Notes under the pieces: generated by a model | The model's database searches: none | Told to the model about the DNA's origin: nothing | What the model saw: the letters and a program-made list of their open reading frames with translations, nothing else | Translations under genes and position numbers: made by a program | In this document: positions 1-41,180 of the stretch, in pieces | Numbering within the stretch: position 1 is the first letter of the stretch | Layout: every line of letters begins with the position of its first letter | Source of the DNA: Oscillospiraceae bacterium | Lineage (GTDB): Bacteria > Bacillota > Clostridia > Oscillospirales > JAKOTC01 | Assembly: GCA_035380125.1 (NCBI GenBank) | Contig: DAOSWV010000002.1 | Coordinates: forward strand, 73,270-137,269 | Length of the DNA: 64,000 nt | Direction of reading: 5' to 3'

Positions 1-1478
<1,478 letters not shown>

Positions 1479-1489
<11 letters not shown>

Positions 1490-2102
1490 TCGTACGCTCT
1501 TTTACACTTTCTTTGATGGAGACATAGTCGTCGTCGGCGATGATGATGTGGTCGTAGACGGTGATGCCGAGGTCGCGGCAGGCGGCGAGGATCATTGAGA
1601 GCGCCGCGTTATCGTTTGCCGACGGGATTGCAAAGCCCCCGGGGTGATTATGCGCCCAAATCAACTGATTTGCGCCGATTGCAACCGCTGTTTCGGCAAT
1701 TGATGAGATGCGTGTGCTGACGGTATCGCTGTGCAAATCCCCGTATTCGCGCAGGTCGAGGATTTTACCGCTCTTGTCGGCGAAGATCACCGTCAGCATT
1801 TCTTCGGAAAGGGCAAAATAACGGGCGGTGAGGTGGTCGGCCAAAGCGGGGTCGTCAATGCGTTTTGGCAGGGGATGGCGTTCGGTGAGCGCTCTGCGTA
1901 CAATAGCCGGTAAAAGGGCGATGAGTGCCGCTCTCTCTTCGGTCATGCCTGCAACACGCATCAGTTTTTCGGGCGGCGCCTCAAAAATCGAGGAAAAAGA
2001 ACCGAACGATGTACAAAGGTTGTCCGATACCGCTTTGTCTGCCGATGTGAAAGCGAGCAGGCGGCGCAAAAAATCAGTTCGCTCTTTCGTCAGAAGGTTC
2101 AT
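1479..2102 (-). CDS. radC: RadC-like JAB/MPN-domain protein with intact metal-site motifs
   Basis: 207-aa [26 protein letters not shown] matches the RadC HNHPSG...PSxxD signature. A helix-hairpin-helix-like segment [26 protein letters not shown] is present. Its stop overlaps the uvrB start by 11 nt. Confidence 0.8.
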
Positions 2103-2974: not shown

Positions 2975-4168
2975 ATGTTTGATATTAAATCGCTTCAATC
3001 GGATTTTTCGCGCATTGACCGCGTGATGCGGGCGCGTGGGATTTTTACCGAACAGACCACCGGGAAACAATATTTCACGGGATATTCCTATGAGACGCTT
3101 TATGACTGGGATCAGTATTTTGAGAGCATTATTCAGCTTTATCTGGGCTGGGACACGCGTTATCCGAAAAACGGCGTCGAGATTTTTCTCGATCTGCAGA
3201 AACCGAACGGGCACATTCAACGCAGTTCGACAGGGTGCGACGCACAGCTCAGCGAGCATATCAAGCCCTTTTTGGCGCAGATTTGCCTGTTGATTTACCG
3301 CAAAGACGGAAATCTCGATTTTTTGACGGCGGAATATTACAGCCGTATGAAAAAGTATTTGAATTACTGGCTGTGTGACCGTGATCCGAACCGCAACGGC
3401 CTTTCGGTCTGGGACAGCGGACCGCATACCGGCATGGACAATCAGCATGAACGGGTCGGCTGGTGGCATGACTGCTTCTGTGAAGGCGTTGATCTGAATG
3501 CTTATCTGGTGCGTGAATGCCGCGCTTTTGCCCGTGTGGCCGAAATAAAAGGGCATCCCGATGACGCCGCCGAATTCGCGGCAACAGCCGACCGGGTTGC
3601 TTTGGCGGTGCAGCAATACTGCTGGAATGAAGAGGACGGGTATTTTTACGATTTGGATCAGCGTACAGGGCAACAGATCAAAATCAAATCAATCGCTTCT
3701 TACGCGGTTTTGTGGGCCGGAATCGCCACACCGGGGCAGGCCAAGCGAATGGTGGAAGAGCATCTGACCAACCCCGCCGAGTTTTACCGTCCGCTGCCGT
3801 TTCCCGCGCTGGCGGCGAACGACTCCGGCTACACCGAGGAAAAACTGCCGAAAGATCTAGGCTGCGGATGGCGGGCGCAGACCTGGGTGCCGACGAACTA
3901 TTACGTTTTCCACGGGCTGCACAAATACGGCTATCATACGTTGGCTTCGGAAGTGGCCGAAAAGACTTTTCAAATGGTGAAGGAAATCGGCGACAGGGAA
4001 TATTTTAATACCGAGAGCAGAACCGGAAACGGACTCAACCCGTTCTGGGGATGGACGTTGCTCGCCTATTTTATGCCGCTTGAGGATCGGTTTTCGCTCG
4101 ACCCGACCGAGATCGGCCCCGATCTTTCGGATGCGTTCGACGTCACTGCAAAGGGGATTGGAGAATGA
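2975..4168 (+). CDS. (alpha/alpha)6-barrel glycoside hydrolase, trehalase/GH63 (MGH1-like) type, cytoplasmic
   Basis: 397-aa ORF with no signal peptide. Motifs WDSGPHTGMDN and EYFNTESRTGNGLNPFWGWT resemble GH63/GH37-clan enzymes. The family assignment is from remembered motifs, not a search. Confidence 0.55.
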   Translation: MFDIKSLQSDFSRIDRVMRARGIFTEQTTGKQYFTGYSYETLYDWDQYFESIIQLYLGWDTRYPKNGVEIFLDLQKPNGHIQRSSTGCDAQLSEHIKPFLAQICLLIYRKDGNLDFLTAEYYSRMKKYLNYWLCDRDPNRNGLSVWDSGPHTGMDNQHERVGWWHDCFCEGVDLNAYLVRECRAFARVAEIKGHPDDAAEFAATADRVALAVQQYCWNEEDGYFYDLDQRTGQQIKIKSIASYAVLWAGIATPGQAKRMVEEHLTNPAEFYRPLPFPALAANDSGYTEEKLPKDLGCGWRAQTWVPTNYYVFHGLHKYGYHTLASEVAEKTFQMVKEIGDREYFNTESRTGNGLNPFWGWTLLAYFMPLEDRFSLDPTEIGPDLSDAFDVTAKGIGE

Positions 4169-8139: not shown

Positions 8140-8196
8140 CATGTTAAACACGATAATGCAGAGAAACGCATTATCGAAATGGAACCGGAGGATATT

Positions 8197-10188
8197 ATGA
8201 AAAAGAGAATGTTGGGTTTTATTGCGGCAGCGATGGCACTGGTATTGCTGTTTTCCGCGGGATGTGAAACAACGACAATCCAAGCACTGCCGGCAACACA
8301 GTTTGACACGGATAATGAACTGACCGTTGAACAGATGAGACAGGATCTCGACTATCTTGAGCAATGGCTTGATTATAATCATATCGATGCCTGGCACCGT
8401 ATTTCAAGAGACGATTTTCATGCTGAGATTGAAGCACTTGAAGAAAAACTCGATGGTATGACGCGTACACAGTTTGAATATGAAATCGTAAGACTGGCGG
8501 CTTTGATCGGCGATGCCCACACTTCAGCAGCCCTTGAGAGTATATACAAAGGTTACCGCCGGGAGATCTCCTATGAAGTCAAGAGCTTCGACGACGGATG
8601 GTATATTGTAAGAACCGATATCGATCATAAAGAGTGCCTCGGCTGGAGAATCGATAAAATCAATGGGTTTAACAGAGAACAGATCACCGAGAAGCTAAAA
8701 CCTTATATCTCAACCGAGACCGAGTCTTGGATGCAATATAAGCTATCTTCTAGTATTAACAACTGGGATATTCTATATTTGTGCGGCGTCGTCAATACCG
8801 AAACGGTCACATTGACGCTGTCAAAGGACGGAAAAACAAAAAAGGTGCAATATACCGCAAAGCCCCATCTCGATATTTACAATCTGACTTATGTCACTTT
8901 GTCAACGATGGACGGATATACGGAGATCGAGACCGGGATCAACAATGAATATTATCGGTATATCGAATACGACGACCTGCTGTTTGTGCAGTATAACGTC
9001 TGTAAAAACAGTACGACATACAATATGACAAATTTCGTTTCTAAATTGGAAGTAAAACAAGCAGAAAAAAATTATCGGAATCTTGTTATCGACCTGCGTT
9101 ATAACACCGGCGGAAGTTCCAACGTCATTGATCCGCTGTGCGAATTTGCCGATGATTTTGTGAAGTCTGGCGGAAACTTGTATGTGCTCATCGGTGAGAT
9201 GACCTTCTCATCGGGCGTATGGGCTGTAATCTCCCTGTCTGCATATAATCCCGTGTTTATCGGAAAACCAACCGGCGGCGGAATCAATCATTACGGCAGT
9301 GTGGACGCAACCGTGAGACTTGATAACAGCGGTGTATACATCGGGTGCTCGACCAAGTGGTTTCAGATTCTGGCAGATTCCGAAATTGCATCCGGGATGC
9401 CCGATATCGTTGCCGAACATACCTTCGGGGATTATTTCAACGGTGTCGATCCTGAACTTGCGGTTGTCAGAAAATTGATTTCCGGTGAGACCGAAACCCC
9501 TTCGCCGCAGACGTTTGAGTTGTTCAGCGGAAAGAGAGCCGAGAGTTGGGCTGAAAGCTTTGATTTTGAGAAATACCCTTGGGCTAACAGCATGGACGGC
9601 GGATTTTTCGGTTATCTTGGCACAAAGTGCGTATCGAAATGGATTGATTCTCGATATAAAAGTGACGATTATCCCGGTATGATGCCTGCGGTCTTTGCAC
9701 AGGATTTTGATCTGACGCCCGAAGAACTCGTGGCAGTTATGCGGTTTGACACCCATCGTCGGGCGAGTTACGGCGGTACAACGGATTACTATACCGAAGA
9801 GGATATCAAAGCTGCGCTGATTTTTGCTTTCGGTAGTGATGAATTTGACGAAGCAAAAGTACCCGACCTCGAATTCAATCTCTCCTATGTTGAATTTTGG
9901 TCGGTTTACGGAACCGATCCGGTTGAGAATATGGAGGCGCTTGGGGCGACTGTTGAAAATGCGATTCCGTGGAGTTTTATCACCGAGACCGGAATCAGGA
10001 GTTATCTGGCATGGGTAAGCGGACTCTCAGATAAAAACGAATATACATTACAGAATTTCCTGGAATACACCGAGCTTTCCATCGTGGCTTACGACGATAT
10101 TTTTAATACGTTGAAAAAAGGGACGTCATTGACTTTGTACGGTGATGAAAAAATCGCAGAAATTCGTACCGAGGTTTACGGGTATTGA
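8197..10188 (+). CDS. S41-family peptidase-like lipoprotein with ~220-aa C-terminal extension of unknown function
   Basis: Signal peptide and lipobox MKKRMLGFIAAAMALVLLFSAGC. LVIDLRYNTGGSSN, GEMTFSSG and GKPTGGG motifs are of S41 type. The start was moved to ATG 8197 (GGAGG 5 nt upstream) from the track start 8179. Confidence 0.65.
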   Translation: MKKRMLGFIAAAMALVLLFSAGCETTTIQALPATQFDTDNELTVEQMRQDLDYLEQWLDYNHIDAWHRISRDDFHAEIEALEEKLDGMTRTQFEYEIVRLAALIGDAHTSAALESIYKGYRREISYEVKSFDDGWYIVRTDIDHKECLGWRIDKINGFNREQITEKLKPYISTETESWMQYKLSSSINNWDILYLCGVVNTETVTLTLSKDGKTKKVQYTAKPHLDIYNLTYVTLSTMDGYTEIETGINNEYYRYIEYDDLLFVQYNVCKNSTTYNMTNFVSKLEVKQAEKNYRNLVIDLRYNTGGSSNVIDPLCEFADDFVKSGGNLYVLIGEMTFSSGVWAVISLSAYNPVFIGKPTGGGINHYGSVDATVRLDNSGVYIGCSTKWFQILADSEIASGMPDIVAEHTFGDYFNGVDPELAVVRKLISGETETPSPQTFELFSGKRAESWAESFDFEKYPWANSMDGGFFGYLGTKCVSKWIDSRYKSDDYPGMMPAVFAQDFDLTPEELVAVMRFDTHRRASYGGTTDYYTEEDIKAALIFAFGSDEFDEAKVPDLEFNLSYVEFWSVYGTDPVENMEALGATVENAIPWSFITETGIRSYLAWVSGLSDKNEYTLQNFLEYTELSIVAYDDIFNTLKKGTSLTLYGDEKIAEIRTEVYGY

Positions 10189-10220
10189 ATTGATAACGGG
10201 AAAGGAAAAGGAGCGATTTT

Positions 10221-10994
10221 TCAGATCGTTCCTTTTTCTTTTTGCGCGAGGTATGAGAGCAGTTTCGTATATTCGTCTTGATACCCGAAGGTCTCAAAAT
10301 CTTTTCGGTATTTGCGGTAGACCATTTTCGCGGTCTTTGGTGTGTAATAATCCATCCAGTTGCCTTTACCGCTTTGGTTATAATGCTTCAACGGGGCAAA
10401 ACCGTATTTTTGGCGGATCGGCTCATAATCGGCTTCGAGGTTTTCAAATTTACCTACAAAGTCCGCGATGCATTTGCCATGGCGATATAAAGACGCAAAT
10501 TGCGGACGAAAGTGTTCTTCCGCCAGGCGCTTCGGAATCAAACAGACCATTTTGACAAATCGTTCGAATCCTCTGTCTTTCGATAAAAAGTGGAGCATAT
10601 AAAAATCGAAGGCAAGATGTTTATTGCCCATTTCTGCATCATGATGGTATTTGCTTGCATAGCAGGAAACCAACCGATCAAACGGATTTCGAACAAATGA
10701 AAAACGAAAATAGTCCGAGCGCGGATTAAAATTCCTGTGAAGTCCAAGTGCGGCTCGGTGTACCGAATTGTCGTCTTTGAAATCACGGTTTACAATGCTT
10801 GCCTTTATAGAAGAACAAGCGGTTTTGGGTATGGAAATAAAGGTCAGTTTCTTCTCCGGTATATCAAGATATCGCGTCGGATATGAAGAGCCGAATCGGA
10901 TCAGATATTTTATCTCGTTGAAAAAGGTGTAGCCCAGTGAAACAAGTCCCCAGCGCTCCAGAAAAGCGCCGATTTTTTTACGAAGTTTCCCCAT
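10221..10994 (-). CDS. Sulfotransferase, CHST-like (Sulfotransfer_2-type), tandem paralog 4 of 4 in transcription order
   Basis: 257 aa. IPKTACSSIKAS (5'-PSB-like) and FSFVRNPFDRLVSCYASKYH (3'-PB-like) motifs are present. The C-terminal ~90 aa are near-identical to the other copies. Confidence 0.7.
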   Translation of the reverse strand: MGKLRKKIGAFLERWGLVSLGYTFFNEIKYLIRFGSSYPTRYLDIPEKKLTFISIPKTACSSIKASIVNRDFKDDNSVHRAALGLHRNFNPRSDYFRFSFVRNPFDRLVSCYASKYHHDAEMGNKHLAFDFYMLHFLSKDRGFERFVKMVCLIPKRLAEEHFRPQFASLYRHGKCIADFVGKFENLEADYEPIRQKYGFAPLKHYNQSGKGNWMDYYTPKTAKMVYRKYRKDFETFGYQDEYTKLLSYLAQKEKGTI

Positions 10995-11029
10995 TTTTCC
11001 TCCTTGTTCTCAGTTTTAGTCTGAATCGG

Positions 11030-11815
11030 TTATACTGATTTTTCTTCTTTTGCCGCAAGATATTTTAAAAGTTTTTCATATTCATCTTGATAGCCGAAAG
11101 TCTCTATATCCCTTCGGTATTTGCGATAGATCATTTCTGCGGTTTTGAGTGTGTAATAATCCATCCAGTTGCCTTTATCGGTTTTGTTGTAATGCGCTAA
11201 AGGCGAGAAGCCGTATTTTTGGCGGATCGGTTCGTAATCGGTTTCGAGGTTTTCGAATTTGCCTACGAAATCCGCTATACATTTTCCGTTCCGATATAGG
11301 GTCAGATATTGAGAACGGAAATGCTCTTCCGCAAAGCGTTTTGGAATCATACACACCCTTTTTACAAAATGATCGAACCCTTTGTCTTTTGAGAGGAATC
11401 CGAGTAAGTAGTAGTCGTAGACGAGATGTTGCGGTTTGCCGGATTTGGTGGTTTTAGGATCATGATGATATTTGCTCTCATAACAGGAGACCAATCGATC
11501 AAAAGGATTGCGGACGAATGAAAAAATGAAATATTTCCGGTGGGTATTCGCCGTTTCGTATTTGTCCCGCAATACAGAATGAACCGAATAATCGTCATTG
11601 AATTTTCGGTTGGCCATGCTGGCTTTAATCGAGGAACAGGCAGCTTTCGGCACGGAGATATAGGTGATTTCTTTTTCGGGCATATCAATATGGCCGATCG
11701 GATAAAAGAGACCGTGTTTTATCAGGTTGAACAGCCCCTTGGCAAAGAGGTATATAGTTATCATAAAATCCCACTGCGAGAAGAAAGGCACAACTTTTTC
11801 ACGATAGATCCCCAT
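11030..11815 (-). CDS. Sulfotransferase, CHST-like, tandem paralog 3 of 4
   Basis: 261 aa with VPKAACSSIKAS and FSFVRNPFDRLVSCYESKYH. AGGAGG RBS is present. Confidence 0.7.
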   Translation of the reverse strand: MGIYREKVVPFFSQWDFMITIYLFAKGLFNLIKHGLFYPIGHIDMPEKEITYISVPKAACSSIKASMANRKFNDDYSVHSVLRDKYETANTHRKYFIFSFVRNPFDRLVSCYESKYHHDPKTTKSGKPQHLVYDYYLLGFLSKDKGFDHFVKRVCMIPKRFAEEHFRSQYLTLYRNGKCIADFVGKFENLETDYEPIRQKYGFSPLAHYNKTDKGNWMDYYTLKTAEMIYRKYRRDIETFGYQDEYEKLLKYLAAKEEKSV

Positions 11816-11842
11816 TTTTCCTCCTTGATTTAATAACGATGG

Positions 11843-12616
11843 TCAAGATATATTCTGCTCTTTTTCCGCGAGATATTTTAAAAGTTTTTCATATTCATCT
11901 TGGTACCCGAAGATTTCAAAGTCTTTTTTGAATTTACGGTAGACCATTTTCGCGGTTTTGGGCGTGTAATAATCCATCCAATTGCTTCTGTTGCTCTTAT
12001 TATAATGCCTTAAGGGATCAAAGCCATATTTCGCACGGATCGGTTCGTAATCGATTTCGAGGTTTTCGAATTTGCCGACAAAATCCATCATGCATTTGCC
12101 ATGACGGTAAATAGTGAGGTATTGAGAACGGAAATGCATGTTGGCGAACCTTTTCGGAATGATGCAGACGGATTTAATAAACCGATTGAACCCGCGGTCT
12201 TTTGCGAGTGAACCAAGGAGATAGAAGCGAAAATCCAAGACGTCCATCTTGATTTCGACATCACGGTGATATTTACTTTCATAGCAGGAAACCAGCCGGT
12301 CAAAGGGATTGCGGACAAAAGAGAATTTGAAATATTCGGGATCGTCTTTTAACAGTTTTGGTTCCCCGGGTATCTCCCGATGAACGGAATAATCGTCTTT
12401 GAAATTTTGAAGATATAAGCTTGCCTTAATAGAGGAGCAGGCAACTTTCGGCATAATACAGTAAGTAACTTTTTTATCCGGGATTTCCAGATAGGTCGGG
12501 GGATGAAAAAATCCAAACTTCACTAGGTTTTTGATTTCGTTGATTGCGGTATAACTCTGCGAGACAAGCCCCCAGCGTTCGAGAAAAGCGCCGACCTTTT
12601 TACGAAGTTTCCCCAT
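11843..12616 (-). CDS. Sulfotransferase, CHST-like, tandem paralog 2 of 4
   Basis: 257 aa with MPKVACSSIKAS and FSFVRNPFDRLVSCYESKYH. Its N-terminus MGKLRKK.GAFLERWGLVS is shared with the 10221 copy. Confidence 0.7.
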   Translation of the reverse strand: MGKLRKKVGAFLERWGLVSQSYTAINEIKNLVKFGFFHPPTYLEIPDKKVTYCIMPKVACSSIKASLYLQNFKDDYSVHREIPGEPKLLKDDPEYFKFSFVRNPFDRLVSCYESKYHRDVEIKMDVLDFRFYLLGSLAKDRGFNRFIKSVCIIPKRFANMHFRSQYLTIYRHGKCMMDFVGKFENLEIDYEPIRAKYGFDPLRHYNKSNRSNWMDYYTPKTAKMVYRKFKKDFEIFGYQDEYEKLLKYLAEKEQNIS

Positions 12617-12630
12617 TTTTTCTCCTTGTT

Positions 12631-13413
12631 TTAAGTGTTATTTAGAATTGGGTGTACCGATTTTTCTTCTTTTGCTGCAAGATATTTTAAAAGTTTTTCA
12701 TATTCATCTTGATAACCGAAAGTTTCGAAATCTTTTCGGTATTTGCGATAGACCATTTTGGCGGTTTTGGGCGTGTAATAATCCATCCAGTTGCCTTTAT
12801 CGGTTTTGTTGTAATGTTTCAACGGGGCAAAGCCGTACTTTTGGCGAATCGGTTCATAATCGGTTTCGAGGTTTTCGAATTTGCCTATGAAGTCTGCAAC
12901 GCATTTGCCATGGCGGTATAGGGAAGAATGCTGAGATCGAAAGTGTTTTTCAGCGAGACACCCCGGAATTCGGCAAATCGCTTTGATGAAGTGTTCAAAT
13001 CCCAGATCTTTAGAAATAATGCCCAATAAGTAGTGCTTATAAGTTAGATATGGTTTTTTGATGGCTGCGTCACGGTGAAATTTACTTTCATAACAAGAGG
13101 CCAACCGATCAAAAGGGTTGCGCACAAATGAAAATACAAAGTAATCGGAATTCAGACGGGGAAATCGAAATTTTCCGCCTATCGCCGTGTGTACCGAATA
13201 GTCATCCGGAAAGTTCCGGTTGGTAATACTGGCTTTAAAAGAGGAACAAGCCGCTTTCGGAATATTGATATAAGCGCTTTGTTTTTCGGGAACTTCAATA
13301 TATTCGGGCGGATCGACAAAGCCGAATCGAATCAAATGAATTGCCGACATCATAAAGACGTATGCAGTGATTGCAAAATCCCAACGCTTAATCCTTTCCC
13401 GAAATGTCCCCAT
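12631..13413 (-). CDS. Sulfotransferase, CHST-like, tandem paralog 1 of 4
   Basis: 260 aa with IPKAACSSFKAS and FSFVRNPFDRLASCYESKFH. The C-terminus is a mosaic of the 10221 and 11030 copies. Confidence 0.7.
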   Translation of the reverse strand: MGTFRERIKRWDFAITAYVFMMSAIHLIRFGFVDPPEYIEVPEKQSAYINIPKAACSSFKASITNRNFPDDYSVHTAIGGKFRFPRLNSDYFVFSFVRNPFDRLASCYESKFHRDAAIKKPYLTYKHYLLGIISKDLGFEHFIKAICRIPGCLAEKHFRSQHSSLYRHGKCVADFIGKFENLETDYEPIRQKYGFAPLKHYNKTDKGNWMDYYTPKTAKMVYRKYRKDFETFGYQDEYEKLLKYLAAKEEKSVHPILNNT

Positions 13414-13446
13414 ATTTCCTCCTATTTCGACAAATATTTGAAAATG

Positions 13447-13480
13447 AAAGAGGGGACATGGCAGTCCCCTCTTTTTGTTT
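13447..13480 (-). terminator. Hairpin terminator after rpsI (T-tracts on both strands)
   Basis: AAAGAGGGGA-catggcag-TCCCCTCTTT, flanked by TTTTGTTTT on + and TTTCATTTT on -. Confidence 0.7.
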
Positions 13481-13485
13481 TGTTG

Positions 13486-13884
13486 TTATCTCTTTGAGAA
13501 CTGCGGCGCGCGACGGGCCTTTTTGAGACCGTACTTCTTGCGCTCGACCATTCTCGGGTCACGTGTGAGGAACCCGGCTTTTTTCAGCGGCAGGCGGAGG
13601 TTTTCGTCAAACTTCAGCAGTGCGCGCGAAATGCCGTGGCGGATGGCACCCGCCTGACCGGAGACGCCGCCGCCGTCGACATTGCAGACGATGTCGAACT
13701 TCGCGGAGGTTTCGGTCAGCACCAGCGGCTGACGCACCAACAGCTTGAGGGTGTCGAGGCCGAAATAGTCGTCGATGGTGCGGTCGTTGATCGTGATGTT
13801 GCCGCTGCCCGGATAGAGGCGGACTCTGGCGACTGAGCTTTTTCTTCTGCCCGTGCCGTAGAAATAGGGAACTGTATCGTACAT
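13486..13884 (-). CDS. rpsI: 30S ribosomal protein S9
   Basis: 132 aa, with [15 protein letters not shown] near the N-terminus and [17 protein letters not shown] at the C-terminus. Confidence 0.95.
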
Positions 13885-13898
13885 TTAAAGTGTCCTCC

Positions 13899-14333
13899 TT
13901 AGTCCTGATACGCGAGGGTCTTGGGCTTCTGAGCCTCGTGTTTGTGCTCGGCGCCGGCATAGACCTTCAGGCGGGACAAGCTGTTTCTGCCGATGGAATT
14001 GGCAGGCAACATGCGCTTGATCGCCAGATACATGGCTTTTTCGGGATCGTTGTTCATCATGGTCTTGTATTGGATGGACTTGAGATGACCGATATAGCCG
14101 GTGTGATACTGATAATACTTCTTCTCGGCTTTATTGCCGGTCAGAACCGCTTTGGCAGCGTTGACGATGATGACATTGTCGCCGCAGTCGACATGGGGTG
14201 TGAAGATGACTTTGTGTTTTCCGCGCAGGACAGCGGCAGCCTGTGCCGCAATTCTGCCCAGCGGTTTCCCGGCTGCATCTATCACATACCACTCGCGGGC
14301 AAGTTCGTTGCCCTTTGGCATAAATGTGGACAT
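13899..14333 (-). CDS. rplM: 50S ribosomal protein L13
   Basis: 144 aa. WYVIDAAGKPLGRIAAQAA..LRGKHK is typical of L13. The gene lies immediately upstream of rpsI. Confidence 0.95.
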   Translation of the reverse strand: MSTFMPKGNELAREWYVIDAAGKPLGRIAAQAAAVLRGKHKVIFTPHVDCGDNVIIVNAAKAVLTGNKAEKKYYQYHTGYIGHLKSIQYKTMMNNDPEKAMYLAIKRMLPANSIGRNSLSRLKVYAGAEHKHEAQKPKTLAYQD

Positions 14334-14432
14334 AAATCAGATTCCTCCGTTAAAATATCGCCTTTTGCAAAACCCCGTGAGCGGGTTTACGCTTAGCCTG
14401 ATTATTATAATGCAGCCAAAAATCGATGTCAA
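14334..14432 (-). promoter_or_regulatory. rplM promoter plus structured leader (candidate r-protein autoregulatory leader)
   Basis: Minus strand: TTGACA (14427-14432), 17 nt, TATAAT (14404-14409). The leader has hairpin AAACCCG-cuca-CGGGGUUU. A 5' AAUCAG is complementary to CUGAUU lying just 3' of the RBS (1 nt before the AUG), so the pairing would enclose the RBS. No homology to the Rfam L13 leader was tested. Confidence 0.45.
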
Positions 14433-14554
14433 GGGATTTTGGGGATTATTTTAAAACACGGTTTTAATAATCGATTTAACTTGATTTATGTCAATTTATC
14501 TTTGAATATCTCATTCCGAATTTTTATAAATTTGCAAAAAACGATCTGCGGCTC

Positions 14555-14583
14555 TTGACAATTATGTGACGGAGGTGTAAAAT
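14555..14583 (+). promoter_or_regulatory. rny promoter
   Basis: TTGACA (14555-14560), 17-nt spacer, TAAAAT (14578-14583). Confidence 0.6.
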
Positions 14584-14699
14584 TTGTAAGAATATTCGTG
14601 TACTTCGCCGGTTGTGAAGCTTGTATGCGTGTTTAGCTGAATTACGCATTTCATTTCCAGCGCCAAATGCACGGGTTTGACATACAGGAGGTGCAGTTT

Positions 14700-16355
14700 T
14701 TGAAACTGTTTAGTGCCGTAATCGGCGCATTGCTTGATCAACAGCCCGTTTGGGCGATTGTGATATGCGTAGTGGTAATTGTCCTGGCAATACTCGTCGG
14801 ATATCTGATTTCCGAGAGTAAGCACAAGAGAGAAGAGGCCAAAAATGCCGCGGCCCTGGAAGCGGCTAATATGCGTATCGCCGAAAGTGAAAGCAAGGCG
14901 GGCGAGATCATCCGCAACGCCAACAAAGAGGCCGCGAAGTTGCAGAATGAAGCGCTTCGCAATGCCGAAAGCCGGAAAAAAGAAATGATGATCGAGGCTA
15001 AGGATGAGATTTTTCATCTTCGTTCCGAGGCTGACAAGGAACTCAAAGAACGCCGCAAGGAAGTTCAATTTGCCGAACAGCGGCTGCTTCAAAAGGAAGA
15101 GGCCCTCGATCGTAAGCTCGAGAACGTCGACAAAAAAGAAGAATCCCTCAACGACAGAATTAAGCAGGCCGAGGCCAAAAACGCCGAAGCCGAAAAGCTC
15201 CGCCAGGATCAGCAGAAGCTGCTTGAGGAAATGTCCGGCTACACCGCCGAACAAGCTAAGAAGTATCTGTTGGATATGGTGGACGCAGAACTTGTTCACG
15301 ACAAAGCACTGCGGCTGAAAGCTTATGAAAACAATCTGAAAGAGGAGTCCGAATCCGCCGCCAAGGAGATTCTGACCACGGCCATTCAGCGTTATGCCGC
15401 AGAACACGTCTCCGAGGTTACGGTATCGGTTGTCCCGCTGCCGAACGACGAGATGAAAGGCCGCATCATCGGCCGCGAGGGTCGGAACATTCGTACCATC
15501 GAGACCATGACCGGCGTGGATCTGATCATTGACGACACGCCCGAGGCCATCACGATTTCATCCTTCGACCCGGTGCGCCGCGAAATTGCCCGTCAAGCCC
15601 TTGAAAAACTGGTCTGCGACGGACGTATCCACCCGGCACGCATCGAGGAGATTGTCGAAAAGACCCGCAACGAGGTCGAGGCCACGATCAAAGAGGCCGG
15701 CGAACGCGCCGCGCTCTCGGTCGGCATTCACGGCATCAACCCCGATCTGGTCAGAGTTCTCGGACGCCTGCGCTACCGCACAAGTTACGGGCAGAATGCG
15801 CTTGAACATTCCACAGAGGTCGCGTTTATCGCCGGACTCATGGCCGCCGAAATCGGCGTCGATCCGGTTATGGCACGCCGCGCGGGATTACTGCACGACA
15901 TCGGCAAGGCCATCGACCACGAAACCGAGGGGTCGCATGTCTCCATCGGTGCGGAACTGGCCAGAAAATACCGTGAGAACGAGATCGTCATCAACTCGAT
16001 CGAATCCCATCACGGCGACGTCGAGCCGACGGGCATCATCTCGGTGCTGGTTGCGGCAGCCGACGCGGTTTCCGCCGCAAGGCCGGGCGCAAGACGCGAA
16101 AACATCCAGACCTACATCAAGCGGCTTGAACAACTCGAGAATATCGCCAACAGCTTTGACGGCGTCGAGAAGTCCTTCGCCATGCAAGCCGGACGCGAGA
16201 TCCGCATCATGGTCAAGCCCGAACTGGTCAACGACGACACCATCACCGTCATGGCGCACGACATCGTCAAACGCATCGAGGACGAGATGGATTATCCCGG
16301 CCAGATCAAGGTGCACGTCATCCGCGAAAACCGCGCGATCGAGTTCGCGAAGTAA
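14700..16355 (+). CDS. rny: Ribonuclease Y
   Basis: N-terminal TM helix, coiled-coil KH region [15 protein letters not shown], and HD domain LLHDIGKA. The start is set to TTG 14700 (AGGAGG 8 nt upstream) rather than the track ATG 14667. Confidence 0.9.
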
Positions 16356-16461: not shown

Positions 16462-16780
16462 AAGCCAAACTTAATAATGGTTGTGAACCAAACCGCTGAA
16501 GCGGAGATAACGGTGATCATGATCCCACAGAGAGCCCGAGATGGTGGAATTCGGGCGGAAAACAAGTCATCAAATGGACCGCTGAGGGCGCAGGCGAAAA
16601 ACGAATCTGTCGATTTAAAGTAAATCTGACGATTTACTAAGTAGTTTGCGACGTGTGGGCATACGTCAGTTGCCGGGGATATGCTGGTATCCCGCAAAGC
16701 GCACGGCAATTGCCGTGAATCAAGGTGGCACCGCGAATGAGTATTCGTCCTTGACAGAATTTCTGTCAGGGATTTTTTGT
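16462..16780 (+). promoter_or_regulatory. T-box riboswitch leader, tryptophan (UGG) specifier
   Basis: AGAGAG box and distal GAGATGGTGGAATTC are present in Stem I. The specifier context is AAATGGA (TGG at 16575-16577). The T-box sequence AATCAAGGTGGCACCGCG lies at 16718-16735. Terminator TCCTTGACAGA-attt-CTGTCAGGGA plus TTTTTT lies at 16748-16778. The leader sits directly upstream of trpE. Confidence 0.85.
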
Positions 16781-16800
16781 TGTTTAAAGGAGTCGAGAGT

Positions 16801-18264
16801 ATGATCAGACCGAGTTTGGAAGAAGTCAAAAAAATCGCAGCGAGTGGGCAATACGGGGTCGTGCCGGTCAGCACCGAGATGCTGTCGGACATCAAAACGC
16901 CGATTGAGGTATTGAAAATTTTGAAAAACGTCTCCGGGCACTGTTATCTGCTGGAATCGGTGGCGGGAAACGAAAAATGGGGTCGGTACACCTTTTTGGG
17001 ATTTGACCCGAAACTCGAGATCACCTGCGTCAACCGGCAGATGAAAGTCGGGCCGCTGTCGTTCGAGACCGGCGATCCCGGAAAGTACATCCGACAGGTT
17101 TTGGGCGAACACAAGAGTCCGAAATTTTCGTATCTGCCGTCCTTTACCGGCGGGCTGGTCGGTTATTTTTCGTACGATTATCTGAAATACGCCGAGCCGA
17201 CATTGAATCCGGGTGTATCGGACATCGAGGGGTTCAAGGACGTCGACCTGATGTTGTTCGACAAGGTGATTGCGTTTGATAACTTCCGTCAAAAGATCAT
17301 TTTAATCGTCAATATGGCGCTGTCCGACGTGACCGAGAATTATAACAAAGCCATTATGGTGCTTGAAAACCTGAAAGACCTGATTCAAAACGGCAAACCC
17401 TGCGAGGACAAGCCCGGAAAGCTGACCGGCGAAATCAAGGCGTTGTTTGACAAAGAGCGATACTGCGAGATGGTCGAAAAGGCAAAATACCATATTCACG
17501 AGGGCGATATTTTTCAGATTGTGCTGTCCAACCGGCTCGAGGCCGAATTCGAGGGCAGTTTATTGAACGCTTATAGGGTGCTGCGCACCATCAATCCGTC
17601 GCCGTATATGTTCTTTTTTTCGTCGTCGGATATGGAGGTCGCCGGAGCTTCACCCGAGACGCTGGTCAAACTCGAGGATGGCGTGCTGCACACCTTCCCG
17701 CTGGCCGGAACCCGCCCGCGCGGCAAGACCGAGGAAGAGGATAAGGCGCTTGAAAAAGAATTATTAGCTGATCCCAAGGAACTGGCCGAACACAATATGT
17801 TGGTCGATTTGGGGCGCAACGATTTGGGGCGCATCAGCAAGTTCGGGACGGTCGCGGTCGAAAAACTGCGAAGCGTGGAACGGTATTCTCATGTGATGCA
17901 CATCGGCTCGGTGGTGCGCGGCGAAATTCGGGACGATAAAGACGCGCTCGACGCCATCGACGCGGTGCTGCCGGCGGGAACGCTCTCGGGCGCGCCGAAA
18001 ATCCGCGCCTGCCAGCTGATTGATGAACTTGAAAACAACAAGCGGGGCATTTACGGCGGGGCAATCGGGTATATTGACTTCACCGGAAATTTGGACACCT
18101 GCATTGCGATTCGGATCGCCTACAAGAAAAACGGCAGGGTGTTCGTGCGCAGCGGGGCGGGTATTGTGGCCGACTCGGTGCCGGAGAGCGAATATCAGGA
18201 GTGCCTGAACAAGGCGGCGGCGGTCATTAAAGCGTTGAAGACAGCAGAGGAGGAAGATTTATGA
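16801..18264 (+). CDS. trpE: Anthranilate synthase component I
   Basis: Chorismate-binding motifs LAGTRPRG, GRYSHVMHIGS and GGAIGY are present. The start is set to ATG 16801 (AAGGAG RBS, downstream of the T-box terminator) rather than 16777. Confidence 0.92.
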   Translation: MIRPSLEEVKKIAASGQYGVVPVSTEMLSDIKTPIEVLKILKNVSGHCYLLESVAGNEKWGRYTFLGFDPKLEITCVNRQMKVGPLSFETGDPGKYIRQVLGEHKSPKFSYLPSFTGGLVGYFSYDYLKYAEPTLNPGVSDIEGFKDVDLMLFDKVIAFDNFRQKIILIVNMALSDVTENYNKAIMVLENLKDLIQNGKPCEDKPGKLTGEIKALFDKERYCEMVEKAKYHIHEGDIFQIVLSNRLEAEFEGSLLNAYRVLRTINPSPYMFFFSSSDMEVAGASPETLVKLEDGVLHTFPLAGTRPRGKTEEEDKALEKELLADPKELAEHNMLVDLGRNDLGRISKFGTVAVEKLRSVERYSHVMHIGSVVRGEIRDDKDALDAIDAVLPAGTLSGAPKIRACQLIDELENNKRGIYGGAIGYIDFTGNLDTCIAIRIAYKKNGRVFVRSGAGIVADSVPESEYQECLNKAAAVIKALKTAEEEDL

Positions 18265-18839
18265 TTGTTTTGATCGATAATTACGACAGCTTTTCGTATA
18301 ACCTCTATCAACTGGTCGGCACGCTGAATCCAGACATCAAGGTTATCCGAAACGACGCGATGACGCCCGAACAGATCGATGCGTTAAAACCCGAGGCCAT
18401 CATCATTTCACCGGGGCCGGGCAGACCCGCCGACGCGGGTGTCAGTATTGAAACGATACGAAAGCTCGGGAGCAAATATCCGATTCTGGGGGTGTGTCTG
18501 GGGCATCAGGCCATCTGCGAGGCGTTCGGCGCGACGGTGTCCTATGCCAAAGAGCTGATGCACGGCAAACAGAGCCAAACCGAAATTGACACCGCTTGCC
18601 CGCTGTTCACCGGTCTGCCGAAGGCCATTCCGGTGGCGCGCTATCACTCGCTGGCGGCGGTCGAGAGCACGATGCCCGGCTGTTTGGAAGTGACCGCGCG
18701 CACCGAGGACGGAGAGATCATGGGCGTGAAACACAAACAATACGATATTTACGGCTTGCAGTTTCACCCGGAGTCGATTTTGACACCGGACGGTATGGAG
18801 ATATTGAAGAACTTTATGAGGAGGAGCAAAAATGATTAA
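18261..18839 (+). CDS. trpG: Anthranilate synthase component II (glutamine amidotransferase)
   Basis: 192 aa with the GATase-1 motif GVCLGHQ and FHPES. It overlaps the trpE stop. Confidence 0.9.
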
Positions 18840-19848
18840 GGAAGCCATCGTCAAGATCGTCAATAAGGAAGATCTGACTTACGAAGAGGCCTATACCGTC
18901 ATGAACGAGATTATGAGCGGCGAGACCTCCCAGACCCAGAACGCCGCGTTTTTGGCCGCGCTTTCGACCAAGAGCACCAAGGCCGAGACCATCGACGAGA
19001 TTTCGGGCTGCGCCGCGGCGATGCGCGACCACGCGACCAAAGTGGTGCACGGTCTTGAAGTGCTCGACATCGTCGGCACGGGCGGCGACGGTGCGCACAG
19101 CTTTAATATTTCAACCGTCGCGGCGATTGTACTGGCGGCAGGCGGGGTCAGGGTGGCGAAACACGGAAACCGCGCGGCTTCGTCCAAATGCGGCACGGCG
19201 GACTGCCTTGAGGCGCTGGGGGTGAAAATCGAACTGTCGCCGGAAAAATGTGCCGAACTGCTGAAAATGACAGGCATCTGCTTTCTGTTCGCCCAGAAAT
19301 ACCATATGTCGATGAAATACGTAGGACCGATTCGCCGCGAACTCGGAATTCGAACCGTCTTTAACATCCTCGGGCCGCTGACCAATCCGGCGTCTCCGAC
19401 GATGCAGTTATTGGGCGTTTACGACGAAGCGTTGGTCGAGCCGCTGGCAAAAGTTATGGCGCAGCTCGGTATCAAGCGCGGGTTCGTCGTCCATTGTCGC
19501 GACCGGCTGGACGAGATGGCCACCTGCGCGCCGACGGTCGTCTGCGAGATCAAGGACGGGTATTACAAGAGCTTTATCATCAAACCGGAGGATTTTGGGT
19601 TTGTCCGTTGTAAAAAAGAAGACCTCTTGGGCGGTACGCCGCAGGAAAACGCACAGATCGCACTGGCGATTTTAAACGGCGAAAAAGGCCCCAAGCGTGA
19701 CACAGTGCTGATGAACGCGGGCGCGGGGCTTTATATCGCCGGGAAAGCCGCTTCAATTGCGGAGGGTATCAAGTTGGCAGAAGAATTGATCGACTCGGGC
19801 AAAGCCTTCAAAAAGCTCGGGGAATTTAAGGAAGAATCGAACAAATGA
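18832..19848 (+). CDS. trpD: Anthranilate phosphoribosyltransferase
   Basis: 338 aa with the DIVGTGGDG motif and [12 protein letters not shown]. Confidence 0.92.
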
Positions 19849-20636
19849 ATGGGGATATTTTAAAAACCATCGCCGCGTACACCCAAAAGCGGGTCGCGAA
19901 GGCGAAAAAGAGCGTTTCGGCGCGGCAAATGCGGGATATCGCCATTTCGATGCACGGGACGGCGGATTTTCCGTTCGAAAAAGCGCTGTCGGGCGCGGAG
20001 ATCGGTTTTATCTGTGAGGTCAAAAAGGCCTCGCCGTCAAAGGGGCTGATCGCACCGACATTTCCGTATTTGAAAATCGCCAAGGACTATGAAAAAGCGG
20101 GTGCGGCGGCGATCTCGGTGCTGACGGAGCCCAAGTGGTTTTTGGGACAGGACGACTATCTGCGGGAAATCGCGGGGGTGGTTTCGGTCCCGTGCCTGCG
20201 CAAGGACTTCACGGTCGACGAATATATGATTTACGAAGCCAGAACACTCGGCGCTTCGGCGGTGCTGCTGATTTGCTCGCTGCTCGACGCGGAGACGATT
20301 AAAAAATACATCGGCATCTGCGATATACTGGGGCTATCGGCGTTGGTAGAGGCGCATGACGAGAATGAGGTGAAAACCGCATTGTCGGCGGGCGCAAGAA
20401 TTATCGGCGTCAACAACCGCAATCTGCGTGATTTTACGGTTGATCTCGAAAACAGTGTGCGGCTTCGACAGTTGGTGCCGAAAGAGGTTTTGTTTGTGGC
20501 CGAAAGCGGCATCTCGACGGCGGAAGACGTGGAAAAGCTGCGCAATGCGGGCGTGAACGGTATTTTGGTCGGTGAGACCCTGATGCGCGCAGCTGACAAA
20601 AAGGCCGCGTTGGATGCGCTGAGAGGCATTTTATGA
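19845..20636 (+). CDS. trpC: Indole-3-glycerol phosphate synthase
   Basis: 263 aa with [19 protein letters not shown] and [11 protein letters not shown]. Confidence 0.9.
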
Positions 20637-21235
20637 ACGAAGTAAAAATCAAAATCTGCGGGTTGTTCCGCGAACAGGATATCGAATATGCCAATGCGCT
20701 GAAACCGGATTATATCGGATTTGTGTTTGCGAAAAGTCATCGGCAGGTCACGCCCGGACAAGCAAAAAAACTGCGGCAAAAACTCGCGCCCGGGATGATA
20801 CCGGTCGGGGTATTTGTCGATGAACCGGTCGAACATGTGGCGAAACTGCTGTCCGACGGCGTGATTGAGATGGCGCAGCTGCACGGGCACGAGGATGAGA
20901 AATACATCACCGAGCTGCGTAAACTTTCCGGCAAGCGAATTATTCAGGCGTTTCGGATTACGGAAAATCGCGATGAGGAAAGAGCGGTTTTGTCGACGGC
21001 GGATGATATTTTACTCGACGGCGGGAGCGGTTCGGGCGTACAGTTTGACTGGACGTTGATTCAGGAGGTAAAAAGACCGTTTTTTCTGGCGGGCGGATTG
21101 AATCCGGAGAATGTGTCCGAAGCGATTCGGGTCGTAAAACCGTTCGCGGTTGACGCCAGTTCCGGGGTAGAGACCGGAAAAGTGAAAGATTTTGAAAAGA
21201 TGCGGCGTTTTATCGAAGCCGTAAGAGGTGTTTAA
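20633..21235 (+). CDS. trpF: Phosphoribosylanthranilate isomerase
   Basis: 200 aa. VKIKICGL and DYIGFVF motifs are present, and operon position fits. Confidence 0.88.
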
Positions 21236-21236
21236 G

Positions 21237-22271: not shown

Positions 22272-22292
22272 TATAATGGGGAGATTTCATTC

Positions 22293-22374: not shown

Positions 22375-22399
22375 TGATACAAAAAGGACGGTAAAAAAC

Positions 22400-41161: not shown

Positions 41162-41180
41162 GGTGATGACCTTTCTCATT

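What the first reader, a model, noticed from the sequence alone, without database searches (positions are those of the whole stretch)
10221..13413. Four tandem, mosaic paralogs of a CHST-like sulfotransferase with no partner genes
Seen in sequence:
- Four co-oriented minus-strand ORFs (257, 261, 257 and 260 aa) are separated by only 14-35 bp, and each has its own GGAGG-type RBS.
- Each carries (I/V/M)PK(T/A/V)ACSS(I/F)KAS at about residue 55 and F(S)FVRNPFDRL(V/A)SCY(A/E)SK(Y/F)H about 45 residues later.

Established knowledge: these match the 5'-PSB and 3'-PB PAPS-binding motifs of the carbohydrate sulfotransferase (Sulfotransfer_2, CHST/HNK-1ST) family.

Mosaic structure:
- The C-terminal ~90 aa are nearly identical and mosaic between copies.
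- The 12631 copy shares FAPLKHYN and PKTAKMVYRKYRKDFETFGYQDEY with the 10221 copy.
- The same copy shares KTDKGNWMDYYT and EKLLKYLAAKEEKSV with the 11030 copy.
- Long stretches are about 90 percent identical at nucleotide level, which implies recent gene conversion.
- The N-terminal ~50 aa and the segment between the 3'-PB motif and the HFR(P/S)Q motif diverge.

Inference: this is a shared PAPS-binding scaffold with diversified acceptor-binding parts, i.e. a battery of sulfotransferases with different substrates.

Context: no sulfate-activation genes (sulfate adenylyltransferase, APS kinase), glycosyltransferase, exporter or capsule genes occur in the window. The neighbours are rpsI-rplM and an S41-like lipoprotein. 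The acceptor is unknown.
Basis: partly seen in the sequence, partly recalled or inferred. Interest (0 to 1): 0.72.

Follow-up and report, generated by a model that had tools for sequence, protein, structure and literature searches.

The report
Four-gene sulfotransferase array, accessory island
Four old, individually conserved copies of a predicted sulfate-adding enzyme sit in a row after a ribosomal-protein operon in an uncultured anaerobic-digester bacterium; the enzyme family is well known and already annotated, and only the target molecule is unknown.

Summary
The four minus-strand ORFs are real. All four match Pfam Sulfotransfer_2 (PF03567, E 1e-16 to 1e-18) and keep the PAPS-binding Lys, Arg and Ser. 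The window is 100% identical to a 352-kb JGI digester contig, and GenBank already names the proteins 'sulfotransferase family 2 domain-containing protein' (Oscillospiraceae MAGs, HOP10046.1-HOP10049.1).

The copies are old paralogs, 62-70% identical at nucleotide level, with synonymous sites saturated in the 5' two-thirds. Each has its own ortholog in related lineages (73-88% aa), with dN/dS of 0.11-0.14. Gene conversion is real but confined to the 3' third and is clearest for ST2-ST4.

The array is accessory: 0, 3 or 4 copies in related lineages at the rpsI junction. It also has atypically low GC3.

The window holds no PAPS or glycan genes. Nine of the closest Firmicutes relatives have cysD and cysN/C within about 5 kb. 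Five homologs sit in glycan-biosynthesis loci.

Best reading: four specialised PAPS-dependent O-sulfotransferases, most likely decorating a glycan whose assembly genes lie elsewhere. This is a new member of a known kind, of modest interest.

The parts
10221..10994 (-). ST1, 257-aa Sulfotransfer_2 paralog (GenBank HOP10046.1). It is absent from the three-copy related lineage.
   Evidence: ORF. PF03567 E=4.1e-18. Ortholog at 88% in L099, dN/dS 0.11. AF2 model with pLDDT 93. No ST1 lies between ST2' and the S41-like gene in L096.
11030..11815 (-). ST2, 261-aa Sulfotransfer_2 paralog (HOP10047.1).
   Evidence: PF03567 E=5e-16. Ortholog P0007 at 77%, dN/dS 0.11. The 3' third is converted with ST4: dS 0.48, aa identity 88% against 71% to its own ortholog.
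11843..12616 (-). ST3, 257-aa Sulfotransfer_2 paralog (HOP10048.1).
   Evidence: PF03567 E=3.2e-18. Ortholog P0003 at 73%, dN/dS 0.13. The first 60 nt are 87% identical to ST1.
12631..13413 (-). ST4, 260-aa Sulfotransfer_2 paralog (HOP10049.1), first gene of the array. It has the most hydrophobic N-terminal helix.
   Evidence: PF03567 E=3.6e-16. Orthologs P0008 at 85% and P0004 at 97%, dN/dS 0.14. Kyte-Doolittle 19-residue maximum of 1.61 at residues 15-33.
13446..13475 (-). GC-rich hairpin after rpsI (a likely intrinsic terminator or attenuator), about 25 nt upstream of the ST4 RBS.
   Evidence: Terminator-like scan hit. The stem is invariant and the loop variable in three lineages. The 86-nt region folds at -24.3 kcal/mol, z=-3.4. 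No sigma-70-like site lies between it and ST4.
14404..14432 (-). Consensus sigma-70-type promoter upstream of rplM-rpsI. It is the only strong promoter-like site upstream of the array on this strand.
   Evidence: TTGACA-17-TATAAT, 12 of 12 matches. Its role in ST expression is inferred (read-through).
13486..14333 (-). rplM-rpsI, the core genes directly upstream of the array.
   Evidence: Pfam Ribosomal_L13 and Ribosomal_S9 on the identical contig. GC3 0.69-0.77 against 0.41-0.48 for the STs.
9485..13446 (.). Indel relative to related genome L091. It contains the last ~230 codons of the S41-like gene plus all four ST genes.
   Evidence: blastn: window 8288-9484 aligns to L091 6218-7414, and window 13447-16355 aligns to L091 7440-10347. 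L091 gene order is ppdK, S41-like (431 aa), rpsI, rplM.
8179..10188 (+). Convergent S41-like lipoprotein (669 aa, lipobox LFSAGC). It neighbours the array in both ST-bearing lineages, and a functional link is unproven.
   Evidence: PF03572 E=2e-6. N-terminus. GC3 0.49. The orthologs in L093 and L096 are again convergent with an ST gene.

Best explanation
The locus encodes four cytoplasmic, PAPS-dependent O-sulfotransferases of the Sulfotransfer_2 family. They form an old, lineage-specific tandem expansion. Each copy is individually maintained by purifying selection, so they are most likely specialised for different acceptor positions or residues.

Each enzyme would bind PAPS through the strand-loop-helix Lys57 (5'-PSB) and the strand-turn-helix Arg102/Ser110 (3'-PB), then transfer sulfate to a hydroxyl group. 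The near-invariant His161 in HFRxQ is the candidate catalytic base. The variable N-terminal helices and the 115-175 segment would set acceptor specificity. The shared 3' third is partly homogenised by gene conversion.

The most likely acceptor class is a glycan: a lipid-linked repeat unit of a cell-surface or extracellular polysaccharide, sulfated on the cytoplasmic face before export. Its assembly genes, and the PAPS-synthesis genes, would lie elsewhere in the genome.

The array is an accessory, compositionally atypical insertion or deletion at the rpsI junction. It is probably expressed by read-through of the rpsI hairpin from the rplM promoter.

Shown: family membership, motif retention, age of the paralogs, selection, copy-number variation, and linkage to PAPS and glycan genes in relatives. 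Inferred: PAPS use by these four proteins, glycan acceptor, division of labour, and mode of transcription.
For: Family and motifs:
- PF03567 matches all four at E 1e-16 to 1e-18, against a cutoff of 22 bits.
- K57, R102, S110, Q165, E184, D232 and Y238 are invariant across 86 homologs. H161 is conserved in at least 90%. All are retained in all four copies.
- The AF2 model (pLDDT 93) places K57 after strand 50-54 and before helix 60-68, and R102/S110 after strand 96-101 and in helix 104-121.
- The Foldseek PDB hits are almost exclusively PAPS sulfotransferases.
- A profile alignment puts both motifs in register with HS2ST 3f5f.

PAPS linkage in relatives: nine of the closest Firmicutes relatives have cysD and cysN/C within about 5 kb. 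L087, L088 and L089 show the same linkage.

Glycan context:
- L084 Geobacillus: CpsB, LytR, Bac_transf, Wzy, GT4.
- L088: GT2 x3, flippases, pyruvyl transferase, cysQ, sulfate ABC transporter.
- L004: rmlB-like gene, GT2, sulfate permease.
- L006: GT2, flippase, cysQ.
- Gloeothece plasmid: GalE, GTs, LicD.

Specialisation: the copies have one-to-one orthologs at 73-88%, against 58-66% between paralogs. dN/dS is 0.11-0.14 overall and 0.09-0.15 in the variable part.

Conversion: ST2-ST4 C-terminal dS is 0.48, against 0.95-1.67 for the orthologs' C-terminal parts. Lineage-specific motifs differ: NWMDYYT here, DWRDYYT in three related-lineage copies.

Accessory status: 0, 3 or 4 copies in related lineages. 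GC3 is 0.41-0.48 against 0.62-0.77 for the flanks.
Against: - No PAPS-synthesis, GT, flippase or capsule gene lies in the 64-kb window, and the rest of the genome could not be searched.
- Several relatives form minimal cysD-cysNC-transporter-ST cassettes without glycan genes. That arrangement resembles small-molecule sulfation clusters.
- Structural similarity to solved sulfotransferases is weak (best Foldseek E=9e-3, TM 0.3-0.4), and pocket geometry could not be measured.
- No member of this bacterial clade has been characterised biochemically, as far as the searched literature shows.
- No promoter was identified for the array.
Confidence: 0.55

Rival explanations
1. The four enzymes sulfate small molecules or lipids rather than a glycan, for example hydroxy fatty acids, sterols, phenolics or other metabolites abundant in a digester. 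They would be functional analogues of the gut-bacterial BtSULT and ErSULT, and each paralog would take a different substrate class.
For: There are no glycan genes at the locus. Many close relatives sit in minimal cysD-cysNC-(TauE or ABC importer)-ST cassettes without GTs, an arrangement reminiscent (from my own knowledge) of the BtSULT cluster. Gut bacteria do sulfate hydroxy fatty acids and steroids with PAPS-dependent enzymes (PMC13449962). A partner-less 'battery' of paralogs suits broad substrate coverage.
Against: The characterised small-molecule enzymes belong to Sulfotransfer_3, not Sulfotransfer_2, and PF13469 does not match these proteins. According to the review read, characterised PF03567 members are overwhelmingly carbohydrate sulfotransferases. 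Five homolog contexts are bona fide glycan loci.
Confidence: 0.25
2. The copies are functionally redundant duplicates kept similar by frequent recent gene conversion. This would be gene dosage, not diversification.
For: The array is tandem and co-oriented, the 3' third is shared, and ST2-ST4 show a conversion tract.
Against: Synonymous sites are saturated in the 5' two-thirds. One-to-one orthologs persist across lineages. dN/dS is about 0.1 in the divergent regions. N-terminal identity between paralogs is only 32-68%.
Confidence: 0.05
3. The genome cannot make PAPS, so the enzymes are inactive relics or use another donor or externally derived PAPS.
For: No cys or sat genes lie in 64 kb, whereas almost all close relatives keep cysD and cysNC adjacent.
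Against: All four are under purifying selection and retain every family-invariant residue. The array is maintained in at least three lineages. PAPS genes need not be linked.
Confidence: 0.1
4. The acceptors are proteins or peptides, for example Tyr, Ser or Thr sulfation of a secreted or ribosomally made peptide.
For: Only that sulfotransferases can act on peptides in other families, and that the acceptor here is unknown. That first point rests on my own knowledge.
Against: No precursor-peptide ORFs fit in the 14-35 nt gaps. No RiPP-type neighbours occur in any examined locus. The family is carbohydrate-directed where characterised.
Confidence: 0.05

Closest known systems
Animal Golgi carbohydrate sulfotransferases of Pfam Sulfotransfer_2 (HS2ST, HS6ST, CHST8-14/HNK-1ST)
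   Same: Same Pfam family. The 5'-PSB Lys and the 3'-PB PxxRxxS-type motif align in register with HS2ST 3f5f. JGI's automated annotation calls homologs 'chondroitin 4-sulfotransferase 11'.
   Different: These are bacterial, about 260 aa, and lack a convincing transmembrane anchor (Kyte-Doolittle maxima 0.45-1.61). Sequence similarity to solved members is not significant on its own (E=0.92; Foldseek E>=9e-3). The acceptor is unknown.
Sulfotransferases in bacterial sulfated-exopolysaccharide loci, such as XssA/XssE of Synechocystis synechan (PMC8205485)
   Same: They are PAPS-type sulfotransferases that decorate a Wzx/Wzy-built repeat unit. Homologs of the window proteins sit in comparable loci in Geobacillus, L088, L004, L006 and Gloeothece.
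   Different: The window array has no GT, Wzx or Wzy neighbours. I did not test which Pfam family XssA and XssE belong to, or their homology to ST1-4. The paper states that sulfated polysaccharides are not reported outside cyanobacteria.
Gut-bacterial small-molecule sulfotransferases BtSULT and ErSULT (PMC13449962)
   Same: They are PAPS-dependent enzymes of anaerobic commensals. ErSULT comes from a clostridial commensal, and its homologues are mainly found in Clostridia.
   Different: They belong to Sulfotransfer_3, and PF13469 does not match ST1-4. They are single genes, not four-copy arrays.
Partner-less tandem Sulfotransfer_2 arrays in other bacteria (L085 with five copies, L090 with three)
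   Same: They are co-oriented tandem paralogs with the N-terminal part more divergent than the C-terminal part (60 vs 85% and 76 vs 87%, against 54 vs 80% here). No linked PAPS or GT genes are present.
   Different: They are independent expansions: each array is monophyletic, with 28-38% identity between arrays. They come from unrelated, apparently Gram-negative genomes and are uncharacterised.

Membership tests
Pfam Sulfotransfer_2 (PF03567) | Profile HMM score above the curated gathering threshold over most of the domain | tested here: met
   Scores of 60-67 bits against a cutoff of 22, covering profile positions 4-7 to 252 of 252, for all four proteins.
Pfam Sulfotransfer_2 (PF03567) | 5'-phosphosulfate-binding loop with a conserved Lys in a strand-loop-helix | tested here: met
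   K57 in PK(T/A/V)ACSS is invariant in 86 homologs. The model has strand 50-54, a loop, then helix 60-68. The motif aligns with PKTASTS of HS2ST. The motif definition comes from PMC11625862.
Pfam Sulfotransfer_2 (PF03567) | 3'-phosphate-binding strand-turn-helix with the PxxRxxS-type Arg and Ser | tested here: met
   In FVRNPFDRLVSCY, R102, P104 and S110 are invariant. The model has strand 96-101 and helix 104-121. The motif aligns with VIRDPIERLVSYY of HS2ST.
Pfam Sulfotransfer_2 (PF03567) | Sulfotransferase fold with a formed PAPS pocket, shown by structural superposition | tested here: inconclusive
Pfam Sulfotransfer_2 (PF03567) | Catalytic base (His in HS2ST-type enzymes) | tested here: inconclusive
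   H161 (HFRxQ) is conserved in at least 90% of 86 homologs, and H79 is invariant among the four copies. The review notes that the catalytic base is not positionally conserved in this family. Its position relative to K57 could not be measured.
Pfam Sulfotransfer_2 (PF03567) | PAPS-dependent sulfate transfer activity | not testable with these tools
   Only genomic association is available: cysD and cysN/C are adjacent in nine close relatives and in L087-L089.
Polysaccharide (EPS/CPS) sulfotransferase encoded within a glycan-assembly locus | Adjacency to glycosyltransferases, a Wzx/Wzy or ABC exporter, or sugar-nucleotide genes | tested here: not met
   No such genes lie in the 64-kb window. The feature is met in homolog loci L084, L088, L004, L006 and L100. 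The claim 'works like one' therefore stands as inference only.
Sulfotransfer_3-type bacterial small-molecule SULTs (BtSULT/ErSULT) | Match to PF13469 | tested here: not met
   PF13469 is not reported even at E<=1. BtSULT and ErSULT are stated to be Sulfotransfer_3.
Cytosolic SULT / Sulfotransfer_1 | Match to PF00685 | tested here: not met
   PF00685 is not reported at E<=1. Structural hits to SULT2A1 and SULT2B1 are only weak.

The most novel reading that the evidence does not exclude
Partner-less tandem 'batteries' of Sulfotransfer_2 paralogs may be a recurrent architecture that evolved independently at least three times: four copies here, five in L085, three in L090. A donor-binding 3' module would be kept uniform by gene conversion while the acceptor-facing parts diversify under selection. 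The result would be a combinatorial sulfation pattern on a surface glycan. For a Firmicute this would mean a multiply sulfated cell-surface polysaccharide, a class the synechan paper says is unreported outside cyanobacteria. The array's position behind the rpsI hairpin would tie its expression to ribosomal-protein transcription.
Probability: 0.2. Interest if true: 0.55.

Novelty: new member of a known kind. Interest (0 to 1): 0.3.

Why it matters
Bacterial Sulfotransfer_2 enzymes are numerous and largely unstudied: one survey counted 517 Firmicutes entries, and most of the putative SULTs it tabulated have not been functionally studied (PMC13449962). Sulfated glycans are thought to be rare in bacteria outside cyanobacteria (PMC8205485). 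A four-enzyme array with stable, selected paralogs is a compact natural experiment in how acceptor specificity evolves on a fixed PAPS scaffold. It could also supply regioselective sulfotransferases for making sulfated oligosaccharides. As it stands, this is a correctly annotated family member with an unknown substrate. It is useful as a candidate for enzymology, but it is not a surprise.

Tried and rejected
- NCBIfam: no model matches the four proteins.
- PDB sequence search: nothing with the 4-sequence profile. The 86-sequence profile gave only a non-significant HS2ST hit.
- Defence and mobile origin: PADLOC defence models gave no hits. tblastn against phages and plasmids found only distant homologs (identity 35% or lower), so there is no evidence of a phage or plasmid origin.
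- RNA: Rfam on 9900-14700 gave only a chance-level sraA hit on the opposite strand (E=0.92).
- Island boundaries: no flanking direct or inverted repeats, IS elements or tRNA mark them.
- N-terminal transmembrane anchor, as in Golgi CHSTs: rejected for ST1 and ST3 (Kyte-Doolittle 0.45-0.73) and borderline only for ST4 (1.61). The model shows two helices instead.
- S41-like lipoprotein as an obligate partner acquired with the array: not supported. A 431-aa version with the same low GC3 exists in L091 without any ST. Its association with the array may simply reflect contiguity.
- Permutation test on runs of matching polymorphic sites: significant only for pairs involving the extreme 3' end (p = 0.001-0.012) and not for ST1 pairs. 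It was superseded by the ortholog-versus-paralog and dS analyses.
- ErSULT as a characterised ortholog: rejected, since it belongs to a different Pfam family.


Full report
**Observation**

The four minus-strand ORFs exist exactly as described: ST1 10221-10994 (257 aa), ST2 11030-11815 (261 aa), ST3 11843-12616 (257 aa) and ST4 12631-13413 (260 aa). They are separated by 35, 27 and 14 nt. ST1, ST2 and ST4 are preceded by GGAGG; ST3 has only AAGGAGA. A four-copy direct repeat with a period of 801-821 nt is detected independently.

All four carry PK(T/A/V)ACSS (K57), FSFVRNPFDRL(V/A)SCY (R102, S110) and HFR(P/S)Q (H161, Q165).
- The C-terminal ~90 aa are 72-89% identical, not nearly identical.
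- Nucleotide identity is 62-70% overall. It approaches 90% only for ST4 against ST1 or ST2, over roughly 200-240 nt of the 3' third.

**Source**

Window positions 1843-22616 are 100% identical to JGI anaerobic-digester contig Ga0116244_10000011 (352 kb). The same locus occurs at 99.99% identity in two other digester assemblies. The four proteins are in GenBank under consecutive accessions HOP10046.1-HOP10049.1, and in two further MAGs. They are named 'sulfotransferase family 2 domain-containing protein [Oscillospiraceae bacterium]'. The family call is therefore already public.

**Family membership**

- Pfam PF03567 (Sulfotransfer_2) is the only significant family: E 3e-18 to 5e-16, 60-67 bits against a cutoff of 22, nearly full-length. 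PF00685 and PF13469 do not appear even at E<=1. NCBIfam has no model for these proteins.
- In an 86-sequence alignment, K57, R102, P104, S110, Q165, E184, D232 and Y238 are invariant, and H161 is at least 90% conserved. All four copies keep them.
- An AlphaFold2 model of ST1 is confident (pLDDT 93, pTM 0.89). It shows the expected strand-loop-helix at K57 and strand-turn-helix at R102/S110, matching the published definition of the PAPS-binding folds (PMC11625862).
- Foldseek against PDB returns almost only PAPS-dependent sulfotransferases (SULT2A1/2B1, HS6ST, an Alicyclobacillus sulfotransferase, HS2ST), but weakly: best E=9e-3, TM 0.3-0.4.
- A profile search aligns both motifs in register with HS2ST 3f5f at a non-significant E of 0.92.

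**Age, selection and gene conversion**

Between paralogs, synonymous divergence in the first 175 codons is saturated (dS above 1.8 or not computable). Codon identity among identical residues there is only 0.29-0.71.

Each copy has its own ortholog in related digester lineages:

| Window copy | Ortholog | aa identity |
|---|---|---|
| ST1 | P0001 (L099) | 88% |
| ST2 | P0007 | 77% |
| ST3 | P0003 | 73% |
| ST4 | P0008 / P0004 | 85% / 97% |

Paralog-to-paralog identity is 58-66%. A fifth paralog type, P0006, also exists. Ortholog dN/dS is 0.11-0.14 overall and 0.09-0.15 in the variable N-terminal 175 codons. The duplications therefore predate these lineage splits, and every copy, including its divergent part, is under purifying selection. 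That is what specialisation predicts and what redundancy does not.

The last third behaves differently:
- ST2 is 88% identical to ST4 there but only 71% to its own ortholog.
- ST3 is closer to ST4 and ST1 (77-78%) than to its ortholog (69%).
- All four window copies read NWMDYYT, where three related-lineage copies read DWRDYYT.
- ST2-ST4 C-terminal dS is 0.48, against 0.95-1.67 for the orthologs' C-terminal parts.

This is concerted evolution confined to the 3' third. It is clearest for ST2-ST4 and is not 'recent' in absolute terms. A caveat: a more conserved C-terminal part is also seen in unrelated arrays (L085 60 vs 85%, L090 76 vs 87%, window 54 vs 80%). Part of the pattern is therefore ordinary differential constraint.

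**Accessory status**

- *Composition.* The STs have GC3 of 0.41-0.48 and the convergent S41-like gene 0.49, against 0.62-0.77 for ppdK, rpsI, rplM, rny and trpE.
- *Zero copies.* A related genome (L091, GCA_964612155.1; ppdK dS 0.83) has ppdK, an S41-like gene of 431 aa, rpsI, rplM and rny, and no sulfotransferase. The indel spans window 9485-13446, which is the last ~230 codons of the S41-like gene plus all four STs.
- *Three copies.* A closer lineage (rplM dS 0.52) has rplM, rpsI, ST4', ST3', ST2' and a convergent S41-like gene of 659 aa. It lacks ST1 and has an ABC transporter instead of ppdK on the far side.
- *ST1 elsewhere.* A third lineage has ST2'' followed by ST1''.
- *Gain or loss.* Copy number at this junction is thus 0, 3 or 4. 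Gain versus loss cannot be polarised with these data. No repeats, IS elements or tRNA mark the boundaries.

**Expression signals**

A GC-rich hairpin (13446-13475) follows rpsI. Its stem is invariant and its loop varies across three lineages. The ST4 RBS lies about 25 nt further on, and no sigma-70-like site intervenes. The only strong promoter-like site upstream on this strand is the 12/12 consensus before rplM (14432-14404). Expression by attenuated read-through is an inference.

**Context here and in relatives**

The window itself has no cysD or cysN/C (tblastn with probes from L086). Pfam finds no GT, flippase or capsule family among its other ORFs of at least 150 aa; the 880-aa ORF at 60926-63568 was not scanned. 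The window encodes housekeeping genes, a trp operon, and GH31, GH39-like, GH123 and GH63-like hydrolases.

Relatives look different:
- *PAPS linkage.* Among the closest homologs in species-representative genomes, nine Firmicutes loci have cysD and cysN/C within about 5 kb (L004-L008, L012, L013, L083 and L086). L087, L088 and L089 show the same linkage. This is strong guilt-by-association for PAPS dependence.
- *Glycan loci.* Five homolog contexts are bona fide glycan-assembly loci:
  - Geobacillus kaustophilus: CpsB, LytR, Bac_transf, Wzy, GT4.
  - L088: three GT2s, two flippases, a pyruvyl transferase, MBOAT, cysD, cysNC, cysQ and a sulfate ABC transporter.
  - Pseudalkalibacillus L004: dTDP-sugar dehydratase, GT2, ST, cysD, cysNC and a sulfate permease.
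  - Lachnospiraceae L006: GT2, flippase, cysQ, ST, cysD and cysNC.
  - A Gloeothece plasmid: GalE, GTs, LicD.
- *Minimal cassettes.* Others are cysD-cysNC-(TauE or ABC importer)-ST cassettes with no glycan genes.
- *Partner-less arrays.* These recur elsewhere: five copies in L085 and three in L090. Each array is monophyletic, so these are independent expansions.

**Literature**

The characterised gut-bacterial enzymes BtSULT and ErSULT belong to Sulfotransfer_3. The same paper counts 517 Firmicutes Sulfotransfer_2 entries and says most of the putative SULTs it tabulated have not been functionally studied (PMC13449962). The synechan study places sulfotransferases in cyanobacterial EPS clusters and states that sulfated polysaccharides are not reported from other bacteria (PMC8205485). 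I found no paper describing this array or a characterised ortholog.

**Interpretation**

The best-supported reading is four specialised PAPS-dependent O-sulfotransferases. The acceptor is most likely a glycan assembled elsewhere in the genome (confidence about 0.55 for the whole statement, about 0.9 for 'PAPS-dependent sulfotransferases'). The main rival is small-molecule or lipid sulfation (about 0.25). It is favoured by the minimal cassettes and the lack of glycan genes here, but disfavoured by the family's known chemistry. Simple redundancy is disfavoured by the ortholog and selection data. A missing PAPS pathway cannot be excluded, because the rest of the genome was not searchable.

**Verdict**

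The evolutionary claims needed correction: these are old paralogs with conversion limited to the 3' part. The substrate remains unknown. This is a new member of a known kind, with modest interest (0.3). The most novel reading not excluded is a recurrent 'sulfation battery' producing a multiply sulfated Firmicute surface glycan.

Noticed in passing
window 16777-24357; L091 10406-10978: The trp operon plus a DAHP synthase gene lies between rny and the GH31 gene here. It is absent at the same site in related genome L091, where a single HTH_3 regulator gene sits instead. This is a second indel between these lineages.
   Followed up: partly
window 8179-10188 (C-terminal part about 9485-10188): The S41-like lipoprotein (lipobox LFSAGC) has an acidic C-terminal domain of ~230 aa after a TETPSPQ linker, with no Pfam match. 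The domain is missing from the 431-aa ortholog in L091 and present in the ST-bearing lineage (L093). The gene evolves fast (67% aa identity, dS above 2) and has low GC3 in all lineages.
   Followed up: partly
L085 10001-14511: Five overlapping tandem Sulfotransfer_2 genes of ~300 aa lie between an IpgD-family gene and serS on a 1.6-Mb contig. The array has no PAPS or GT genes and expanded independently of the window array.
   Followed up: partly
L090 9103-11662: Three tandem Sulfotransfer_2 genes follow glmS in a Gram-negative genome (LpxB and BamH nearby). They have no linked partner genes and are 74-84% identical to each other.
   Followed up: partly
L086 4252-10801; L089 5147-11618: A conserved cassette runs nitroreductase, thioredoxin_3-like gene, a 413-aa protein with no Pfam match, cysD, cysN/C fusion, then two divergent Sulfotransfer_2 genes. 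The 413-aa protein is an uncharacterised candidate partner.
   Followed up: no
window 13446-13475: The hairpin after rpsI has an invariant 11-12 bp stem and a freely varying loop in three lineages. In ST-bearing lineages the following ~25 nt up to the RBS are also conserved. The only Rfam hit is a chance-level sraA match on the opposite strand (E=0.92).
   Followed up: partly
window 746-1516, 2099-2848, 33183-35288: Three sizeable ORFs (256, 249 and 701 aa) have no Pfam match at E<=1e-5.
   Followed up: no
window 2975-4168, 24497-26686, 37292-38659, 39521-41179: Several glycoside hydrolase genes (GH63-like, GH31, GH39-like, GH123) are scattered among housekeeping genes. This fits a glycan-degrading lifestyle, and none is adjacent to the ST array.
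   Followed up: no
window 10221-14333 compared with L095, L096 and L093: Ortholog synonymous divergence rises steadily with distance from rpsI: rpsI 0.21, ST4 0.56, ST3 1.23, ST2 1.26, S41-like 2.1. This may reflect codon-bias constraint, or recombination near the conserved ribosomal genes.
   Followed up: partly
L087 6219-10813: A cysD, cysN/C, TauE, ST cassette sits directly beside the rplQ end of the large ribosomal-protein operon. This is another case of a sulfotransferase module next to ribosomal-protein genes.
   Followed up: no
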